Shown: in pieces, positions 1,248 to 18,011 of the stretch
How the letters are laid out: each line of letters opens with the position of its first letter
How positions within the stretch are numbered: position 1 is the stretch's first letter
From: Neodothiora populina
Lineage: Eukaryota
Assembly (NCBI RefSeq): GCF_041146345.1
Contig: NW_027191407.1
Coordinates: 310,001-374,000, forward strand
Direction of reading: 5' to 3'
Length of the DNA: 64,000 nt
Notes under the pieces: generated by a model
What the model saw: the letters and a program-made list of their open reading frames with translations, nothing else
Databases searched by the model: none
What the model was told of the DNA's origin: nothing
Position numbers and translations under genes: made by a program

Positions 1248-2383
1248 ATGGATCGCCTAAGTCGAATGTTGGCTGCCGCCCAGGGCATGGGAGGCGGCTC
1301 CGGTGGCCCTCAGCAGGACAGCAACATTGTCGACAACAGTGAAACCGTCTACATTTCATCCCTCGCCTTGCTCAAAATGCTACGTCACGGCCGCGCAGGT
1401 GTGCCCATGGAGGTCATGGGTCTGATGCTGGGCGAGTTTGTCGATGACTATACCGTGCGCGTCGTCGATGTTTTCGCCATGCCGCAATCAGGAACCGGCG
1501 TCTCTGTCGAGGCTGTGGATCCTGTCTTCCAGACCAAGATGATGGATATGCTCCGTCAGACCGGCCGGTACGCTGACTCTTTTTCTCCTCTGCCTCTCAC
1601 ACCCGACTGACCTTTTCTCTTCCCAGACCGGAAACCGTCGTTGGCTGGTACCACTCTCACCCTGGTTTCGGCTGCTGGTTATCCAGCGTCGATATCAACA
1701 CACAACAGTCCTTTGAACAGCTCACCCCTCGCGCCGTCGCCGTCGTCATCGATCCCATCCAATCAGTCAAGGGCAAGGTCGTCATCGACGCCTTCCGCCT
1801 CATCAACCCACAGACGCTCATGCTCGGCCAAGAGCCACGCCAGACGACGTCCAACGTCGGACACCTCAACAAGCCCTCCATCCAAGCTCTCATCCACGGT
1901 CTCAACAGACACTACTACTCCATCGCTGTCGGCTATCTCAAGGGTCGGGGAGGCGGAGGCGCGAGCGGCTCGTCCCAAGGTGTTGGTGCCTCGGCCGGCC
2001 TCAGCGGTGAAGAGGGCATGTTGATGAATCTACACAAGAGCGTCTGGACAGAAGCCTTGACAATGTCCGACTTCAAGACCGAGGGCGACCGCAACCTCGA
2101 CCAGCTCAAGAAACTCGTCTCCCTGGCCGACGGCTACGACAAGCGCGTCAAGGAAGAGACGGAACTCTCCAAGGACCAACTGCGCACGCGCTACGTCGGA
2201 AAGGTAGACCCCAAGAAACACATCGAGGCGCTGTCTCAACTTTTGCTCGAAGACAACATCGTGAGCGTGTCCCGGCAGATGATCGACAAGGAGGCCTCGG
2301 TCCCCACCATTTACCAGCCATGCGTCTCCGGCGATCTCACAGACAACGCCGACGGCGCCATGCAGCTCGACGAGGAACTCTAG
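1248..2383 (+). CDS. RPN11: 26S proteasome lid deubiquitinase Rpn11 (MPN+/JAMM)
   Basis: [31 protein letters not shown]; intron 1568-1626 (gtacgc...cag); JAMM motif [17 protein letters not shown] in exon 2. Confidence 0.98.
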
Positions 2384-9062: not shown

Positions 9063-10244
9063 ATGTTGTCATCATATACAATCTTGCTAGCATTCAATAC
9101 CTTGGCTTCATCGGTCTTTGGTAGCCCATTCCCGCCTCCTTCCAGAAGAGATGCCGACTTCAACAGTGTGAGAACACGACTGAAGCATGACCACAGTGGC
9201 AAAGGAGGGGATGACCCTGGCAAATATTTCCATGAATCAACGTAAGTGAATTGTCGGAAGAGGGCGGCAGTAGTTCAGGAGTTCATCTGACATCCATAAG
9301 TTTTCACCCTCATTACGATGGTCGTTTTGCAGAGAAGCCGCTGCCATATGACGAGAAGCGGGTGCATCTCACTGCTCTCGTCCAGACATATCTATCGACC
9401 ATGAACGATATTGGCGCAGAGACCTGGATCATGCATGGCAGTCTACTGGGCTGGTTCTGGAACAAGAAAATCATGCCTTGGGACTCGGACATCGATGTGC
9501 AGATGTCCGAGAACTCCATGACCCACTTAGCTGATTACTACAACATGACCGTCCACCATTTCAAGCTTCCGGGAGTCCCCAAGGGCCGAGATTACATGCT
9601 CGAGGTCAACCCTAACTGGATTAACGGCAGTATCACTGACACATTGAATGTCATCGATGCCCGGTGGATTGACACAGACAGTGGTCTCTTCATCGACATC
9701 ACAACATTGAGACCCAACTTGACGGCTCAAGAAGAAGGCCATGAAGGCTACATGATGTGTAAAGACAAACACCACTACAATCACTCGGATATCTTTCCGC
9801 TGCGAGGTCAGCCTGTCTATTTACATCACACCTTTTGACACTCGCTAACAGTCACAGAATCCACATTTGAGGATATCCCAGTGAAAATTCCTTACGCATA
9901 CACAGACCTCTTGATTGAGGAATACTCACACGAAGCGCTGGCCGTACGTGATTTCGAGAATCACCACTTCGATCAATTGACCATGGAGTGGAAACCAATA
10001 AGGTGAGCCAATTTTCTTACATGCACATGCCTACGGCGAGGCGCTGACAATTGTACGTAGTACCACCTCAGGTGGTAAGAAGGCGCCTAAGATGTCCTCG
10101 AAGGATCATGGCTTTCATCTTCCCAAGGGCATTAGTAAGGCTGCATTAGCTCGCCTGTACGCTGGTCGTACTCCCGGCGAGTCGGACGTGGGCAAGCCAC
10201 CTCCTCCAGCGGAAGAAGTCAATACAGCATCTATCATTGTTTGA
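9063..10244 (+). CDS. LicD-family (Mnn4/fukutin-like) phosphotransferase with N-terminal signal sequence
   Basis: KYFHES|FHPHYDGRF, TWIMHGSLLGWFWN, PWDSDIDVQ, IDARWIDTDSGLFIDIT; introns 9242-9300, about 9807-9857 and 10003-10060; stop TGA 10242-10244. Confidence 0.9.
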
Positions 10245-11663: not shown

Positions 11664-11688
11664 GGGGGGGGGGGGGGGGGGGGGGGGG
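11664..11688. repeat. G25 homopolymer
   Basis: 25 consecutive G counted. Confidence 0.95.
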
Positions 11689-12227: not shown

Positions 12228-13814
12228 ATGTCACTCAACAGACCTCTATTCACACTGAAGAGTGTTGCTAGCGCTGCATACATCCTTCTTCTTTCCGGCG
12301 TCGCCCACGCCCATTCTTGGGTTGAGGAGATGCAGGCCATCGGCAACAACGGATCGTACACTGGCGACTACGGCTATACTCGTGGATATGTTGCTCGCAC
12401 TGACCCTGGATTCAACGGCGATTCGGTCGACTACCTTCTGCCTCCTCTTGCTTCGGGCCGTACTCGCATAGATCAAAGTGATCTCCTGTGCCATCCTGAC
12501 CAGCGCACATCAAACTACAGCGACAAATACCCGCGCCTTGAGATCACTGCAAATGGCTACTTCGCCATGAAGTATCTTGAGAACGGCCACGTCACTCTTC
12601 CCGACACTCAAGCAGGCAAGCCAAAGGCCGGAGGAACGGTCTTTATCTACGCCACTACCAAGCCATCCGATACCGAAGAGATTGTCGATGTGCTCAAGTG
12701 GACAAGCAGTGGCGACGGCGGAGATAAGCGTGGCAGTCTGATCGCAAGCAACAATTTCGACGACGGACGATGCCATCAGCTGAACTCCGGCGAACTCTCA
12801 CAGCAGCGTCAGGCCAAGTTCCCTGACCGAGTGGCTCGACAACCTACTTCTCAGATCGAGCAGTGGTGTGAGTCCGACGTGCAGATTCCTGCTTCCATCG
12901 CACACGCCGGCGATATCTTGACTCTTTACTGGGTGTGGCAGTGGCCTACAGCCCCTGGTGCCGATCCAGTCTACCCTACTGGCAAGGACGAGTACTACAC
13001 TTCTTGTGCAGAAGTGAAGATCGTCGACGATTTGTCTCATGCTGCACCTGTGCACGCCCTTGTGCAGCAAGATCCCCAGACCAACGCAGTCAGTGATTAC
13101 AAGAGTAGGACTGCCTACACCACTTTTCCATCTGTCACCCTTGCGAGTGCGACGGGTGGTGGCTATGGCTCTGCATCTACCGCGTCGTCGTCATATGCAT
13201 CTTACTCTTCGTCTTCTTCCGTGGACGGCTCTTCTGCATATGCCGCTGGCTCCACGACGACGGCTATGGCGACAGCCTCTACCTCGCCTTACAACGCAGG
13301 CTCTTCGGCGTCTCCTACCGTCGTGAACAGCCTGCCGTACATCACCTACTCGCTGTCCTACCTGCCGACATTCACGACATCCGCCGTCGTAGCCCTTGGC
13401 TCTTCTGACGTAGCCTCATCAAGCTCTTACATGTCGTCGGCTACAGGCTACTCAAACTCGACAAGCACATACTCCCACGGCCGCCATCACCACACTCACG
13501 GCACCGGCAACGACCATACCGTGACGGAAACAGTTACGGCATACATGACGCTCTCGCCGAAGACACCCGACCCTCAGGTGGCCGCACTCAACACTGCCCA
13601 GTCCGAAGCGTCCACTGTTGTCGCCACGGCCACAGCGACTGCTATCGACGTCGTCACGGCAACTGCTACTGCTACGGCCACGGTGGCGGACTTGTCATCG
13701 TCAACATCATCATCATCGTCCACGGCAGAGGCTTGCGCAAGCGCTGGTATCACAGGTCTTGGATCATACAGACGCAACTCGGCGAAGTTCAGACATCGTC
13801 GTCGTCGGGATTAG
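12228..13814 (+). CDS. Secreted protein with mature N-terminal His (LPMO-like histidine-brace candidate) and Ser/Thr/Ala-rich tail
   Basis: Single-exon 528-aa ORF; signal peptide ending AHA|HSWVEE; YLENGHVT, TLYWVWQW and DEYYTSCAEVKI motifs; low-complexity S/T region from about aa 300. Confidence 0.85.
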   Translation: MSLNRPLFTLKSVASAAYILLLSGVAHAHSWVEEMQAIGNNGSYTGDYGYTRGYVARTDPGFNGDSVDYLLPPLASGRTRIDQSDLLCHPDQRTSNYSDKYPRLEITANGYFAMKYLENGHVTLPDTQAGKPKAGGTVFIYATTKPSDTEEIVDVLKWTSSGDGGDKRGSLIASNNFDDGRCHQLNSGELSQQRQAKFPDRVARQPTSQIEQWCESDVQIPASIAHAGDILTLYWVWQWPTAPGADPVYPTGKDEYYTSCAEVKIVDDLSHAAPVHALVQQDPQTNAVSDYKSRTAYTTFPSVTLASATGGGYGSASTASSSYASYSSSSSVDGSSAYAAGSTTTAMATASTSPYNAGSSASPTVVNSLPYITYSLSYLPTFTTSAVVALGSSDVASSSSYMSSATGYSNSTSTYSHGRHHHTHGTGNDHTVTETVTAYMTLSPKTPDPQVAALNTAQSEASTVVATATATAIDVVTATATATATVADLSSSTSSSSSTAEACASAGITGLGSYRRNSAKFRHRRRRD

Positions 13815-15305
13815 AGAGTCAGGCTGGCCATGTTTTCCTCTGCTTTTTTTCCTTTTATTTTTGTCTGCCTTTCTCATGTTTCTTCTGAAATTGGGGAATG
13901 GTGGGATCGGCGTTGTTGTTTTCTCTCATAGGCGTTATGGGGTAGGGAGTTTGGCTTTTGGTGACGGTGGTTGATCTACGCATACAAATGCCCGCTTCTG
14001 AACTTCTCTTCTCTCACTTTTTCCTTTTGAGCTTCATATTCTGCGAGTGGGCCAGCGACGGAGGAAAAAGACGTAGAGATGGAGCACCGGCCGGGCAGTC
14101 CATCACAGGTGATGGATGGGACAGATTCTGCTTCCCTCATCTTTCACTCCATTGGGCTTCTAGTCAGAAAGAAATCAAGAATAGAAAAGAATAAAAACAA
14201 TAAAAAAAAAAGTGAAGAGAAAGCTCCAAGAAGATGCAAAGTCAAGTGTCTCGACTGAAGACCCCCAGGGGCAGGGGAAGATCTCCTCGGGCTGATGAGT
14301 TGAGAATGGAACATATATACATGAATCCCCCTTTCGAGGGGAAAAAGAATCGAGAAAAGGAAGAATAGCATGAATAGGGAAATTGAATTTGAAACCACTC
14401 CCACACCATGAATCTTTGGCCCTCATCCTCCAGAGCGTGTGAGTATAGAAATTGCGTGACTTTTGCATCTCGCGGGACGACTTGCACTCTGTAAACAACC
14501 TGCACTCCATCAACACCGAGATGAAACTTATTGACCGGTAATATCAGGTAGTCAAGGTAGGTAGGTGCAGCAAGCACAGTAAGTCTGCAGATGCTTAGAT
14601 ATAGCAAGTAGGGTCCAGTAGTACGGAGGACCTTCGTACTGAGGTAGTAGACTAGGCCATCGAAGGTAAGGTGGTGTATAGCAATACACTCGAGGAGCGG
14701 ATGACATATGCGCCTTGTCCCACTTTACCTTAAGGTTGTTTTGAGATGAGGAGGGCACAGTAACCGCATGTCGGAAGAGCTTGGGAAGTGGCTCAGACAA
14801 GCACTTGTCATTCGCGGACGGGAAGTGCTGCAAAGAGCGGGGGTTACGTAAGGTAATGGAAGGTAGAGCATGCGGTGCTGTCGCGCTCCTTCCTTTTCTT
14901 GCGACCTAGCTTGTGAATTTAAGCGTTGCCTGGCCGAGGCCGTGAGTGGAGTAAGCACATATAGCTGAGCAGAGCGAATATGCTGTGAGGAAGAAGGAAA
15001 AAGCTGGGAAGGTAGATAAAAGCCAAAAGAATCATGTGCATGCATTTTATGATGTAGTATGTCCTTTACGATACACACACAGTCTCAAGACTTTGTCTCT
15101 CTGATCTCTCTCTCGCTCCCTCTCTGTCTCGGTCTCTCCAGTCGCCGATCGGCACTCCCTGCCACATCGGGGACCCGCCAAAAAAAATGTACAACTTCGT
15201 CTTCTTCTTTCGCTCGTTTCGGGGAAATTTCATGCGTGCGCTTGTTGTTAGGGGGGGGGGGGAAGGAACAAAAAGTGTGAAGTGGGATTTGCTCGCTAAC
15301 TGAAT

Positions 15306-16316
15306 CTATCTGTACTCGGGGCGCACAAAGTCGGCGAGGGTCTTGGGCTCGCCGTCGAAGTTGTGAGAGCCGTCGGTGTCGGCGTGGTCTTTTTGCTTTG
15401 TCAGTGTTGAGTTCTTGATCAAAAGAAAGAAAGAAAAGAAAACACATACGTCCGTGGTCGTGGTGACCGTGGCCGTCGTCCTGGGGTCCGACGTATTCCA
15501 TCTTGTAGACACCACCGCACTCGGGGCAGCGCTCGACGGGGCGGTCGCGGGAGGTGGTCAGCCAGATGACATTGTGGGTGTCGGCAGGGTAGCCGGTGCA
15601 GCCAAGGTACTGCTCGTCACCGTAGGACTTGACGACGATGGGGTTGTCGAGGGTTCCTTTCGAGTGCACATCAGTACATGTCTTTCTTCTCTTTTCCCAA
15701 GTCCTGTCCTCGAATCTCTTGCGCAAGACATGTCCACTCTTCGACATGCGACTGCTGGTGTTGGCTTCGAGAATTGGAGAAGGATGGACGAGGAAAAGAA
15801 GGGTCCTCGGCGGTGGTGTGATCTCACCCTTCCTGCTTGAGTCGAGGGGTCTCATGTCGAAAACATCAACACCCTGCATCTTTCCCAAGATTTCGAGACG
15901 CTCGAGACCGGTGGACTGGTCGAGATCGGTGGGGACGGTTCCCTCGGGGGCACCAGGGGGGAGAAGGTCGGCCTCGGAGGTGAGCTCTAGAGGAGACGCC
16001 ATGTGATTAGCCAATGGCCTGTGGTCTTTCAGTCATCGCAGACCCATGGCGCGCGCGACAGGGAGCATGGCGGCAGCGGCAGCGAGACGGAACGAGTTGG
16101 GAAGCATTACCCTCGAATGGCTTCATGGTCGTGCTGGACTGGTCCTTCTTGGCCTCGACTGCGCATAGTAGTAAGTCACTGGGAGCGTGGCAGCCATGTC
16201 TAGACAGAGCGAGAGGCCTTACAGCGAGTGATGGAGGAAGAGAAGGGACGGGCGACGACGGCAGGGCGGTAGACACCACGCCTGGCGATGGCGAGGGCGG
16301 AGCGACGAAGAAACAT
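15306..16316 (-). CDS. COX4: Cytochrome c oxidase subunit IV (yeast Cox4 / mammalian Vb), 5 exons
   Basis: Arg-rich presequence MFLRRSALAIARRGVYRP; GTVPTDLDQSTGLERLEILG; Zn ligands in GCTGYPADTH...RCPECG; four GT-AG introns. Confidence 0.95.
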
Positions 16317-16892
16317 GACGGCGATTGATTGTACAAGAAAGAGTCGTGCGATGGGATGCGCTACTTTGCGTTGCGTAGGTTGATTCTTGGTTTGGGACAA
16401 GCTCGTCGTCTTGTTGTCTCGTCTTGTGCTGCTCCGGAAGTTGCATGATTGCTGGCCTTGGCGCTGACCTTTAGCCCGGCAACCTCCGCTTGGTGCTGCT
16501 ACCTGTAGGTAGTCATGCTAGTCATGCTTCTGACTCTGTGATGCCAGGGCTATGCCGCGTGCATGACTCATGATATAATTCTTCCAGTTCTTGCCCTCGT
16601 GCCTCACAATTCATCCGTCCCTCTTTGACTGAACTGACATTTGTGTTCTCATCCCCGCAATAAACACCGACCAACATTATTTTCCGCCCTTCATCATTGG
16701 CTCACGCGCTCGACTACGTCCATGTCTTTATAGCGAAAAGTCATAGAGAGGAGCCTATCCACTGCACGATCCTTCGGGAGCAAAAAGTTGCGAGAGCACG
16801 AGCAGGAGCGAGGCTATCGATTGAAGCAGGGACAGAGTAAAGAGGAGGAGCGAGAAGCGAAAGGGAAGAAGCACGAGAGGGATAGAGAAGAG

Positions 16893-18011
16893 ATGGCGGG
16901 TCTCAAGCTGGAGGCCTCGAGCGAGGAGCTCTACGACAAATGTTACACGGCCACTCGCAAGTCGGCCGAGGGTCTGACCAAGATCTTCTCGCAGGAGGAG
17001 ATGCTCAAGTTCGCAAATGTCGAAACCACCGCCGCCCTCATGCCTTTGGTGCAGGGCTTGATGGATGCCCAACTGCTGCGCGTCCTCACGCTCGAGGGCA
17101 AGTACTGCTACGCGGTCAGACCGAGAGACGATGCTATCAAACTCAGCACTCTCGAAGAGCAGGAACTCATGGTCTACCAGCAGATCGAAAACAGTGGCAC
17201 CAACGGTATCTGGGTCAAGACTATCAAGCAACGCACCAATATCCACCAAACCGCCGTCACCAAATGCATGAAAACCCTCGAGGGCAAGAAGCTCGTCAAG
17301 CCCGTCAAGTCGATCAAAAATCCCACCCAGCGCATCTACATGCTGTCGCACCTGTCGCCGAACGAAGATGTCACCGGAGGTCCATGGTTCAGCGAGGGCG
17401 AGTTGGACATTGAACTTATCGCAGTCACCGCGGATGCTGTTGTTCACTTCATCGAGAAGAACAGCTGGAAGACCGTCAACATCAAGCGAGAACATCGCAG
17501 CCCCTCTCCCATCAGTATCGATGATCCCCCAGTCGGCAGCAAAAGGAGACGCCACGACGCTGGCGATATCGAAGGCATCCATCCCAAGTCCCAGAGCCGA
17601 GCCGCCTTCACGAGCCTCGAGCCCACCCAGATTTCCTATCCCGCAGGATATCGCAACTATCCCACCGTACACGCCATTAAGCATTTCATCGAGCAATCGG
17701 GCTTCTTGAAGAACGCTGCCGAGTTGACCATTGCCGACTTGCAGACCCTGCTTGATGTCTTGGTGTTTGACGAGCGCATCGAGAAGATCGGCGGCGGCTA
17801 CCGAACCGTCCGAGGCGTCTTCGGCGCCACCGAAGCCATGAAGAACATGATGGTCGGCAGAGCCGTCACCGACGCTGTCGAGGAGGGTGATATCGGCAAT
17901 GGCCTCAGTCAGGCTCCCTGCGGGCAATGTCCCGTCTTCAATCTCTGCCAAGAAGGCGGTCCTGTCAATGCGAGAAACTGCGAATACTTTGCGACTTGGC
18001 TAAGGACGTGA
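16893..18011 (+). CDS. RPC34: RNA polymerase III subunit C34/RPC6
   Basis: VYQQIENSGTNGIWVKTIK, VKSIKNPTQRIYML, VTGGPWFSEGELD; C-terminal Fe-S motif PCGQCPVFNLC...NCEYF; first ATG at 16893. Confidence 0.95.
   Translation: MAGLKLEASSEELYDKCYTATRKSAEGLTKIFSQEEMLKFANVETTAALMPLVQGLMDAQLLRVLTLEGKYCYAVRPRDDAIKLSTLEEQELMVYQQIENSGTNGIWVKTIKQRTNIHQTAVTKCMKTLEGKKLVKPVKSIKNPTQRIYMLSHLSPNEDVTGGPWFSEGELDIELIAVTADAVVHFIEKNSWKTVNIKREHRSPSPISIDDPPVGSKRRRHDAGDIEGIHPKSQSRAAFTSLEPTQISYPAGYRNYPTVHAIKHFIEQSGFLKNAAELTIADLQTLLDVLVFDERIEKIGGGYRTVRGVFGATEAMKNMMVGRAVTDAVEEGDIGNGLSQAPCGQCPVFNLCQEGGPVNARNCEYFATWLRT

What the first reader, a model, noticed from the sequence alone, without database searches (positions are those of the whole stretch)
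12228..13030. Secreted histidine-brace protein: candidate unclassified LPMO-like copper enzyme family
Seen: the signal peptide ends A-H-A, so the mature chain would start with His (codon 12312, HSWVEE). A second His lies about 92 residues later after a beta-strand-like segment (AMKYLENGH, codon 12588). The domain closes with TLYWVWQW...E-Y-Y-T-S-C-A-E-V, and an early Cys occurs in LLCHP. Known: lytic polysaccharide monooxygenases (AA9/10/11/13-17) need His1 plus a second His and end in a (Q/E)-x-(Y/F)-x-x-C-x-(D/Q/E)-(V/I) strand that supplies the axial Tyr and second-sphere Gln/Glu. Inference: this domain has the whole pattern, but its N-terminus and loops do not resemble the AA families I recall. 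It may be an uncharacterised LPMO or an X325-like copper protein.
Basis: partly seen in the sequence, partly recalled or inferred. Interest (0 to 1): 0.8.

Follow-up and report, generated by a model that had tools for sequence, protein, structure and literature searches.

The report
Unclassified fungal LPMO-type copper protein family
This fungal gene encodes a secreted protein of an uncharacterised family (DUF7492) whose predicted fold and conserved residues match the copper enzymes (LPMOs) that cut tough polysaccharides, yet it fits none of the described LPMO families, so it is a good candidate for a new one.

Summary
ORF 12228-13814 (+, 528 aa) is the genome's only match to Pfam DUF7492 (PF24320, E 6e-97). 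In 418 homologues His1 follows a signal peptide (403/403 untruncated), E-N-G-H93 is invariant (418/418), position 227 is Glu/Gln (396/20) and Tyr229 is kept (416). The AlphaFold model (pLDDT 96) matches LPMO-fold proteins first and about equally (Z 8-9.7 for AA9/10/11/13/15 and X325), and Tyr229 falls on the axial Tyr/Phe in 5 of 5 structures I could check. No solved LPMO is found by sequence profile. AA11 is weakly nearest and shares the Tyr-Glu site. Disordered tails end in basic motifs, including the AA9 motif X283 in 45/312 homologues. His93 geometry, copper binding and activity were not measured. Best reading: an unclassified LPMO family, probably acting on the fungus's own wall (about 0.5; His-brace copper protein about 0.9). 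No library paper names DUF7492. Voshol's 'LPMO16' and the InterPro and CAZy entries could not be checked.

The parts
12228..13814 (+). Coding sequence, 528 aa, apparently single exon; only DUF7492 match in the genome
12228..12311 (+). Predicted signal peptide, 28 aa, ending A-H-A
   Evidence: sequence; same arrangement in 398 of 398 homologues by a crude rule; no SignalP
12312..12314 (+). His1 of the mature chain (H29), first brace histidine
   Evidence: 403/403 non-gap; model residue 1 is the first aligned residue against the mature N-terminal residue of the LPMO chains
12312..13031 (+). LPMO-fold beta-sandwich domain, mature residues 1-240 (core of PF24320)
   Evidence: Pfam E 5.6e-97; AF2 pLDDT 96.1; Foldseek and VIA matches
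12489..12491 (+). Cys60, inferred disulfide partner of Cys232
   Evidence: 414/418; aligns with the early Cys of the genome's AA9 and AA11 proteins in non-significant or weak profile alignments; pairing inferred
12579..12590 (+). Invariant E90-N91-G92-H93; H93 (H121) is the inferred second brace histidine
   Evidence: 418/418 at all four positions; follows strand 83-88; V4-M86 covariation pairs that strand with the His1 strand
12609..12611 (+). Gln100, inferred second-sphere neighbour of Glu227
   Evidence: covariation; Q227 goes with non-Q100 in 18 of 19 versus 43 of 125 for E227; 16 changes on the tree
12771..12869 (+). Family-specific insertion bounded by invariant Cys154 and Cys186 (helix 161-169, invariant R166); second disulfide inferred
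   Evidence: 418/418 each; secondary structure
12930..12944 (+). W207-x-W209-x-W211 strand
   Evidence: 410, 417, 408 of 418; aligns with the W-T-W strand of AA11
12990..13007 (+). E227-x-Y229-x-x-C232: second-sphere Glu, axial Tyr, disulfide Cys
   Evidence: register with the axial residue in 5 of 5 checkable structures
13032..13100 (+). Conserved extension (QQDPQTNAV) included in the Pfam model; confidently modelled but outside the LPMO core
13101..13769 (+). Ser/Thr/Ala-rich low-complexity tail (S 22%, T 17%, A 16% over residues 296-528), inferred disordered and O-glycosylated; contains a His-rich patch (13476-13499) and one unpaired Cys (13734-13736)
13770..13811 (+). Basic C-terminal tip with the conserved (S/G)AKFR motif; no GPI signal
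   Evidence: motif in 28 of 151 diverse sequences, shuffle maximum 3; on both sides of the deepest split of the tree

Best explanation
A secreted monocopper enzyme of the LPMO superfamily, representing an unclassified family (DUF7492). After signal cleavage His1 (amine and ring) and His93 bind one copper; Tyr229 sits in the buried axial position and Glu227, with Gln100 beside it, positions H2O2/O2 as in AA11. Reduced copper then oxidatively nicks a polysaccharide, most likely one of the fungus's own wall (chitin or beta-glucan), during growth or remodelling. The glycosylated tail with its basic tip holds or localises the enzyme at the wall. Shown: conservation, predicted fold, register of His1, Glu227 and Tyr229. 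Inferred: cleavage site, His93 as ligand, copper, catalysis, substrate, tail function. Step odds: His-brace copper protein about 0.9; redox-active on a polysaccharide about 0.65; substrate in the fungal wall about 0.5.
For: Invariant H1, H93, E/Q227, Y229 and four Cys. AF2 pLDDT 96. All 43 Foldseek rows shown are LPMOs, best E 1.5e-5; the top 20 of 48,161 representatives are LPMO-fold His-brace proteins, Z 7.6-9.4; 50 of 50 rows shown in the second look, Z 8.2-9.7. Tyr229 maps on TdAA15A Tyr184, AoAA13 Tyr224, NcAA9C Tyr166, AfAA11B Tyr141 and ScAA10C Phe185 from the end pairs of the alignments (with 83, 84, 90, 92). The Tyr-Glu pair is the AA11 arrangement (PMC12186267), and AA11 is the only family with any profile signal (hhalign E about 9e-5, probability 60). 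Covariation independent of AF2 pairs V4-M86, M86-A233, Q100-E227. Tails resemble LPMO disordered C-terminal regions: X283 RxHAR in 45 of 312, shuffle maximum 4 (motif defined in PMC10990093); the genome's own AA9 ends in RSHAR. For a wall substrate: no CBM in 231 homologues scanned, 2 with PIR repeats, 1 fused to PF11790; kept in many lichen formers, rock-dwelling and black-yeast species (names); single match here; no catabolic cluster.
Against: No activity, copper or expression data. Fold scores are moderate (TM 0.39-0.46, rmsd 2.9-4.8 A in VIA, 136-162 of 240 residues aligned), and the tool warns that Z 7-8 can arise from a common arrangement. X325 scores as high as AA13 (Z 8.2-8.5), so fold does not separate enzyme from copper carrier. 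His93 lies about 15 residues before the strand that the second His directly precedes in AA9 and AA11; sequence alignments put the AA11 and AA9 His near position 105, not 93. Invariant acidic or amide residues (E90, N91, D151) could be extra ligands, as the Asp is in X325 (PMC10952591). The AA11 profile signal is weak (5.4 and 8.0 bits against shuffle maxima of 5.9 and 5.0). RxHAR is concentrated in one part of the tree (6 of 151 diverse), is absent from the 107 further homologues, and its specificity to LPMOs was not tested. The appended wall-related modules are 3 of 231.
Confidence: 0.5

Rival explanations
1. A redox-active His-brace protein without a polysaccharide-cleaving role, acting as an oxidase (H2O2 source) or helper, as proposed for AA16 and left open for AA14.
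For: Tyr-Glu sites are associated with high oxidase activity (PMC10472438; PMC12186267). AA14 has the same domain-plus-basic-tail architecture and a disputed substrate (bioRxiv 2025.11.04.686606 abstract). About 80-100 residues of insertions have no LPMO counterpart and might block a flat binding face.
Against: AA11 enzymes with this site do cleave chitin or chito-oligomers. AA16 and AA14 score lower in the fold search (Z 6.6, 6.7).
Confidence: 0.17
2. A true LPMO acting on external polysaccharides (plant, algal or insect polymers) for nutrition or host penetration.
For: X283 is known from cellulose-active AA9s of plant pathogens. Homologues occur in plant-associated species such as Zymoseptoria, Cercospora, Macrophomina and Elsinoe. 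Top Foldseek hits are AA9.
Against: No CBM in 231 homologues; single match here beside three AA9 genes; wide presence in lichen and rock fungi, which I recall as poor in plant-wall enzymes; no third conserved His and mostly Glu rather than the AA9 Gln.
Confidence: 0.15
3. An X325/Bim1-like copper-binding, uptake or signalling protein with an LPMO fold but no catalytic turnover.
For: LaX325 is among the best structural matches (Z 8.2-8.5). X325 has the brace and no detected polysaccharide activity (PMC7924993). Invariant E90, N91, D151 could supply a fourth ligand. The tail has a His-rich patch (15 of 419 sequences). Low copy number fits a housekeeping role.
Against: Axial Tyr and second-sphere Glu/Gln are kept in register, and E227 only exchanges with Q, about 16 times, the pattern of LPMO second spheres. 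GPI-like hydrophobic ends in only 7 of 419. No profile similarity to the genome's X325 protein, which exists separately.
Confidence: 0.13
4. An LPMO-derived or merely similar beta-sandwich that does not use a His brace (adhesin, lectin or effector).
For: An unrelated fungal effector (NIS1) reaches Z 7.2; His93 register is not proven.
Against: His1 and His93 are both invariant, and the E-x-Y-x-x-C strand is in exact register in 5 of 5 checks.
Confidence: 0.05

Closest known systems
Pfam DUF7492 (PF24320)
   Same: The domain is a full-length member (E 5.6e-97, 324 bits against a cut-off of 27).
   Different: The family is listed as of unknown function; no paper in the library names it. Its InterPro text could not be read.
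CAZy AA11 (AoAA11 4MAH/4MAI, AfAA11A 7P3U, AfAA11B 9EXJ/9HDG)
   Same: His1, axial Tyr with second-sphere Glu, W-x-W core strand, lowest rmsd (2.9-3.4 A) and 18-20% structure-based identity; only family with a weak profile signal; low-complexity tail.
   Different: No AA11 chain found with the family profile at E up to 10. Domain is 240 aa with long insertions; E-N-G-H in place of S-A-V-H; about 13 extra residues between the second His and the next strand; HSW N-terminus instead of HM.
CAZy AA9 (NcAA9C 4D7U, CvAA9A 5NLT, McAA9 7NTL)
   Same: Best Foldseek E-values and Z up to 9.7; axial Tyr in register; some homologues share the X283 RxHAR tip.
   Different: Glu instead of Gln in 396 of 418; no third conserved His; PF03443 only sub-threshold (best 21.3 bits against 27.8, in 5 of 231 homologues, none in the query); core ends at the Tyr strand.
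CAZy AA15 (TdAA15A 5MSZ), AA13 (4OPB), AA10 (4OY7)
   Same: Z 8.2-9.4; second His at 91 in AA15 and AA13 against 93 here; axial residue in register.
   Different: 7-18% identity; no sequence-profile hit; PF03067 only sub-threshold in 3 of 231; Asn two residues before the second His where TdAA15A has Ala89.
CAZy AA14 (PcAA14B 5NO7) and AA16 (7ZE9)
   Same: LPMO fold; AA14 has a glycosylated disordered tail with a basic, His- and Cys-bearing tip.
   Different: Lower structural scores (Z 6.7, 6.6); no PF22810 hit; ESM feature score 0.77-0.78, lead level only.
X325 / Bim1 (LaX325 6IBH/6IBI; PF20238)
   Same: LPMO fold, His1, secreted; Z 8.2-8.5.
   Different: X325 has an Asp ligand and a GPI anchor and is about 150 aa; here Tyr-Glu is kept, GPI-like ends occur in 7 of 419, and there is no profile similarity.
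'LPMO16' of Voshol et al. (A. niger An07g08250; PMC5320794, PMC6950343)
   Same: A putative, unclassified fungal LPMO group found by HMM mining, said to be related to AA11, AA14 and AA16.
   Different: Identity with DUF7492 could not be tested (no sequence in the text or in supplements 2 and 4). Its reported range includes Metazoa (4%) and oomycetes (6%); my named hits were Pezizomycotina apart from two entries labelled Quercus suber.

Membership tests
Pfam DUF7492 (PF24320) | Score above the curated cut-off over the whole model | tested here: met
   324.5 bits against 27, model 2-263 of 265
LPMO superfamily | Histidine as first residue after signal-peptide cleavage | tested here: met
   H1 403/403 non-gap; crude -1/-3 rule met in 398/398; no SignalP or proteomics
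LPMO superfamily | Immunoglobulin-like beta-sandwich of LPMO type | tested here: met
LPMO superfamily | (Q/E)-x-(Y/F) motif supplying second-sphere and axial residues, in structural register | tested here: met
   E/Q227 416/418, Y229 416/418; 5 of 5 end-pair register checks, assuming no gap in the last 9-11 residues of the strand
LPMO superfamily | Second histidine placed beside His1 to form the brace | tested here: inconclusive
   H93 invariant (418/418) and the only other conserved His; covariation supportive; no coordinates to measure; sequence alignments to AA9/AA11 do not align it
LPMO superfamily | Binds one copper in a T-shaped 3N site with open positions | not testable with these tools
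   needs EPR, ICP-MS or a crystal structure
LPMO superfamily | Oxidative cleavage of a polysaccharide | not testable with these tools
   needs enzyme assays
AA11 | Axial Tyr with second-sphere Glu | tested here: met
AA11 | Family-level sequence similarity to AA11 members | tested here: not met
   0 PDB sequences at E up to 10 with the family profile; hhalign probability 25-60 on two AA11-like proteins of this genome; 5.4 and 8.0 bits
AA9 | PF03443 above cut-off; His-Gln-Tyr second sphere | tested here: not met
   no hit in the query; best homologue 21.3 bits against 27.8; Glu in 396/418, no third conserved His
AA10 | PF03067 above cut-off | tested here: not met
   no hit in the query; best homologue 18.3 bits against 23
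AA14 | PF22810 above cut-off | tested here: not met
   no hit in the query or in 231 homologues
AA13, AA15, AA16, AA17 | Family-level sequence similarity to solved members | tested here: not met
   profile search of all PDB sequences, 0 hits at E up to 10; CAZy/dbCAN models were not available
X325 / Bim1 | PF20238 match and GPI anchor | tested here: not met
   no hit; hhalign E 0.38; hydrophobic C-termini in 7 of 419, not in the query
X325 / Bim1 | Asp carboxylate as fourth copper ligand | tested here: inconclusive
   invariant E90 and D151 exist but could not be placed
Egh16-like (PF11327) | His1 but Asp instead of a second His (PMC6950343) | tested here: not met
   no PF11327 hit; second His invariant; definition
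Voshol 'LPMO16' (An07g08250) | Homology to An07g08250 | not testable with these tools
   sequence not obtainable

The most novel reading that the evidence does not exclude
DUF7492 is a new, Pezizomycotina-wide family of catalytically active LPMOs that cleaves a fungal cell-wall polysaccharide for which no LPMO is yet known (beta-1,3- or beta-1,6-glucan, or chitin-glucan links), with a second sphere (Asn91, Gln100, Glu227, Tyr229) unlike any described family and an undescribed C-terminal (S/G)AKFR targeting motif.
Probability: 0.25. Interest if true: 0.85.

Novelty: new variant of a known kind. Interest (0 to 1): 0.62.

Why it matters
New LPMO families have each opened a new substrate or biological role. 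This family is large (563 representatives at 50% identity), deeply conserved, present in lichens, black yeasts, and plant and human pathogens, and still labelled 'unknown function'. It has the complete catalytic residue set in register, so it is directly testable with standard LPMO assays. Natural Glu/Gln exchange at the second-sphere position, about 16 times and coupled to position 100, offers a natural experiment on a residue that tunes LPMO copper reactivity. If the substrate is fungal wall glucan, it would add an oxidative step to wall remodelling.

Tried and rejected
Sequence search of PDB with the domain (two chance alpha-hemolysin rows, E 0.4) and with profiles (low-complexity rows only; none). 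Viral structure library: no match at E up to 0.001; best rows include fusolin/GP37. ESM Atlas beyond DUF7492: LPMO-named clusters at 0.77-0.84, lead level only. hhalign against two AA9 proteins of the genome: not significant (E 0.41, 0.17). PxLPMO1 (PMC8035642; abstract and sections 2.1, 2.7 read) is an X325-like protein of about 190 aa, so I set it aside as not this family (no sequence comparison made). 'AA18' is cited to Santos et al. 2025, the metagenomic CelOCE paper, not to this family. Supplements of the A. nidulans His-methylation study (PMC10349129) hold none of six family peptides. Gene neighbourhood: only ordinary microsynteny (RPN11-like 6, COX4-like 5, LicD 4 of 81 loci). Genome-wide SAKFR pattern: 53 matches against 50 for the control; no second tail-end example recognised among the 22 frames printed from 30 loci. 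No RNA holder listed; the one weak run covers only 221 bases of the tail. AA14 and LPMO_10 family searches in this genome found nothing, which does not show absence. Viral contigs: 0 relatives. Prokaryotic genomes: 1 contig, which looks like a mis-binned fungal contig. A fragment model meant to read off the His93 register could not be obtained, so that question stays open. Cluster-member names for ten homologues could not be looked up.
Full report
Observation. The window is fungal. The nearest named homologues are Aureobasidium proteins at about 73% identity, and the genome is 24 Mb in 18 contigs. One uninterrupted ORF runs from 12228 to 13814 (+), 528 aa. Mature numbering (H29 = 1) is used below.

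Family. The domain is Pfam DUF7492 (PF24320, E 5.6e-97); the only other Pfam row at E up to 10 is a chance match on the tail. It is the single match in the genome. Searches found 607 homologues at 90% clustering and 563 representatives at 50%; only the best 120-150 rows of each search were listed and analysed. Named rows are Pezizomycotina: Dothideomycetes and Eurotiomycetes (classes recalled from the genus names), Lecanoromycetes and Lichinomycetes. Two rows labelled Quercus suber are probably contaminants. The lists were cut, so the outer range of the family is not established. Prokaryotic genomes gave one contig that looks fungal, and viral contigs gave none. The tree has two deep clades of 74 and 77 rows.

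Conservation. Across 418 homologues (redundant, rich in Dothideomycetes and lichens): H1 403 of 403 non-gap, W3 403, E90-N91-G92-H93 418 each, C60 414, C154 418, C186 418, W209 417, position 227 E 396 / Q 20 / gap 2, Y229 416, C232 412. The 150 diverse representatives agree. No other histidine is conserved. All 398 homologues with at least 12 residues before His1 meet a crude signal-cleavage rule; the rule had no control and SignalP was not available.

Fold. AlphaFold2 with 150 sequences gave pLDDT 96.1 and pTM 0.93 for the 263-aa mature domain. All 43 Foldseek rows shown are AA9 or AA10 LPMOs, best E 1.5e-5, TM 0.39-0.46. Against 48,161 representatives the top 20 are LPMO-fold His-brace proteins: AA15 9.4, AA9 9.0, AA10 8.9, AA11 8.8, AA13 8.2, fusolin 8.2, X325 8.2. 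Then come the effector NIS1 at 7.2, AA14 at 6.7 and AA16 at 6.6 (second look). These scores are tied, so no family stands out. Only 136-162 of 240 residues align, and the scores are not far above the Z 7-8 that the tool reports for unrelated common arrangements. The clean ranking and the residue register carry the argument.

Register. The alignments start at model residue 1 on the mature first residue of the LPMO chains. Their end pairs, assuming no gap in the last 9-11 residues of the strand, put Y229 on the axial residue in 5 of 5 structures whose numbering I could take from papers: 240/195 gives TdAA15A Tyr184 (PMC5823890, passages); 238/233 gives AoAA13 Tyr224 (PMC4338556, passage); 239/176 gives NcAA9C Tyr166 with E227 on Gln164 (PMC10472438, passages); 240/177 gives AfAA11B Tyr141 and Glu139, and 240/230 gives ScAA10C Phe185 (PMC12186267, passages). 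LsAA9A ended off that strand and could not be checked.

His93 is less certain. It follows strand 83-88, at about the distance at which the AA11 His follows its strand. However, about 13 extra residues separate it from the next strand, and sequence alignments place the AA9 and AA11 His near position 105. Covariation on 419 rows (effective 230) gives V4-M86, M86-A233, M7-A233/V235 and Q100-E227. Q227 goes with a non-Gln at 100 in 18 of 19 cases, against 43 of 125 for E227, over 16 changes; independent pairs go 5.9 the same way and 0.1 the other, median p 0.03, range 0.008-0.375. This puts the loop that carries His93 beside the second sphere. Coordinates are not returned and a planned fragment model could not be obtained, so the geometry is unmeasured.

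Which family. A domain profile finds no PDB sequence at E up to 10. Of 231 homologues scanned, 5 have sub-threshold AA9 hits and 3 sub-threshold LPMO_10 hits, all on the C-terminal part of the domain. Two AA11-like proteins of this genome, found with a recalled motif, give a weak signal: hhalign E about 9e-5, probability 60; 5.4 and 8.0 bits against shuffle maxima of 5.9 and 5.0. AA9 and X325 give none. The Tyr-Glu pair is the AA11 arrangement, which is linked to high oxidase activity. So the protein is built like an LPMO with an AA11-type site but is not a member of AA11 or any other solved family.

Tail. The core is followed by a conserved 23-aa extension and a Ser/Thr/Ala-rich tail. Tips are basic in 91 of 151 diverse sequences, against 32 of 1002 interior windows. 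RxHAR, the X283 motif of AA9 tails (PMC10990093, passages), ends 45 of 312 homologues (shuffle maximum 4). It is found in only 6 of 151 diverse ones, mostly in one subtree, and in none of the 107 added later. The genome's own AA9 ends in RSHAR. The query carries (S/G)AKFR, found in 28 of 151 (shuffle maximum 3) on both sides of the deepest split; 'AKFR' does not occur in the main text of the two tail papers searched. The query tail also has a His patch and a lone Cys, as in the AA14 tail that binds copper and dimerises (bioRxiv 2025.11.04.686606, abstract only). GPI-like ends are rare (7 of 419). No CBM occurs in 231 homologues; two have PIR repeats and one is fused to PF11790. That PIR repeats link to beta-1,3-glucan and that PF11790 is GH128 beta-1,3-glucanase is recalled, and the single fusion may be a gene-calling artefact.

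Mechanism. Most likely His1 and His93 bind copper, Tyr229, Glu227 and Gln100 tune it, and the enzyme oxidatively cleaves a polysaccharide. The fungal wall is the likeliest target, given low copy number, no CBM, retention in lichen and rock fungi, rare wall-linked modules and no catabolic cluster. This last step is inference (0.5). The fold and brace alone do not prove activity: X325 and CopC lack it (PMC7924993, passages; PMC10952591, passages).

Novelty. Searches for DUF7492, PF24320 and a recalled InterPro number found 0 papers. Six family peptide motifs found one unrelated paper. Topic searches showed no title describing this family. 'AA18' is cited to the CelOCE paper. Open risks: Voshol's 'LPMO16' (PMC5320794, parts 1-3 of 4 and supplements 2 and 4 read; PMC6950343, passages and section 9; its Zenodo tables not seen), the three unassigned candidates of Vu et al. 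2014 (known only through), CAZy X-modules, the InterPro text and subscription journals. The scan's earlier notes hold no sequence look-alike, several other unclassified LPMO-like families, and one note naming DUF7492 as the closest family to another gene and mentioning oomycete clusters, which I did not check.

Verdict. A real, well-conserved member of an uncharacterised family that very probably belongs to the LPMO superfamily and to none of its solved families. New variant of a known kind; interest 0.62.

Noticed in passing
window 13779-13793 and homologues: C-terminal (S/G)AKF(R) motif in 71 of 419 family members, after long unalignable tails; possibly an undescribed targeting or processing motif akin to X283.
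   Followed up: partly
window 13734-13736; homologues P0185, P0186, P0205, P0236, P0242, P0252, P0260: Lone Cys near the basic tip in the query; 62 of 151 diverse homologues have a Cys in the last 60 residues and 7 have a C-x-C-x-KRSRI tip, recalling the Cys-mediated dimers of AA9-X283 and AA14 (no control run).
   Followed up: partly
protein P0174 (residues 345-574): DUF7492 joined to a Glyco_hydro_cc (PF11790) domain in one homologue; true fusion or merged gene call not determined.
   Followed up: no
proteins P0211, P0376: Single PIR repeats (PF00399) in the tails of two homologues.
   Followed up: no
proteins P0069, P0073, P0075, P0077, P0096, P0097, P0100: A small group (named members are Macrophomina, Lasiodiplodia, Botryosphaeria, Diplodia) ends in a hydrophobic, GPI-like stretch instead of a basic tip.
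   Followed up: no
L002 1009-2205 (-), L003, L004/L005, L117, L119, L120: Other His-brace genes of this genome: three AA9 (one ending RSHAR, two with CBM1-like ends), two AA11-like (one ending RRHAG...), at least one X325-like.
   Followed up: partly
L116 (contig of a MAG labelled Deltaproteobacteria): Complete DUF7492 gene with signal peptide and S/T tail on a 10.9-kb contig; probably a fungal contig mis-binned into a bacterial MAG.
   Followed up: partly
window 9236-9838 (+), 15085-16032 (-), 16788-18011 (+), 1577-2380 (+): Neighbours are a LicD-family gene, a cytochrome c oxidase subunit-like gene (recalled label), RPC34 and an RPN11-like gene (recalled label); microsynteny only in 4-6 of 81 related loci.
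   Followed up: yes
window 11664-11688: Run of 25 G about 540 bases upstream of the start codon.
   Followed up: no
fold search, PDB 8XGL: The Magnaporthe effector NIS1 is the best non-His-brace match (Z 7.2, 115 of 124 residues), which may point to an LPMO-like fold in NIS1.
   Followed up: no
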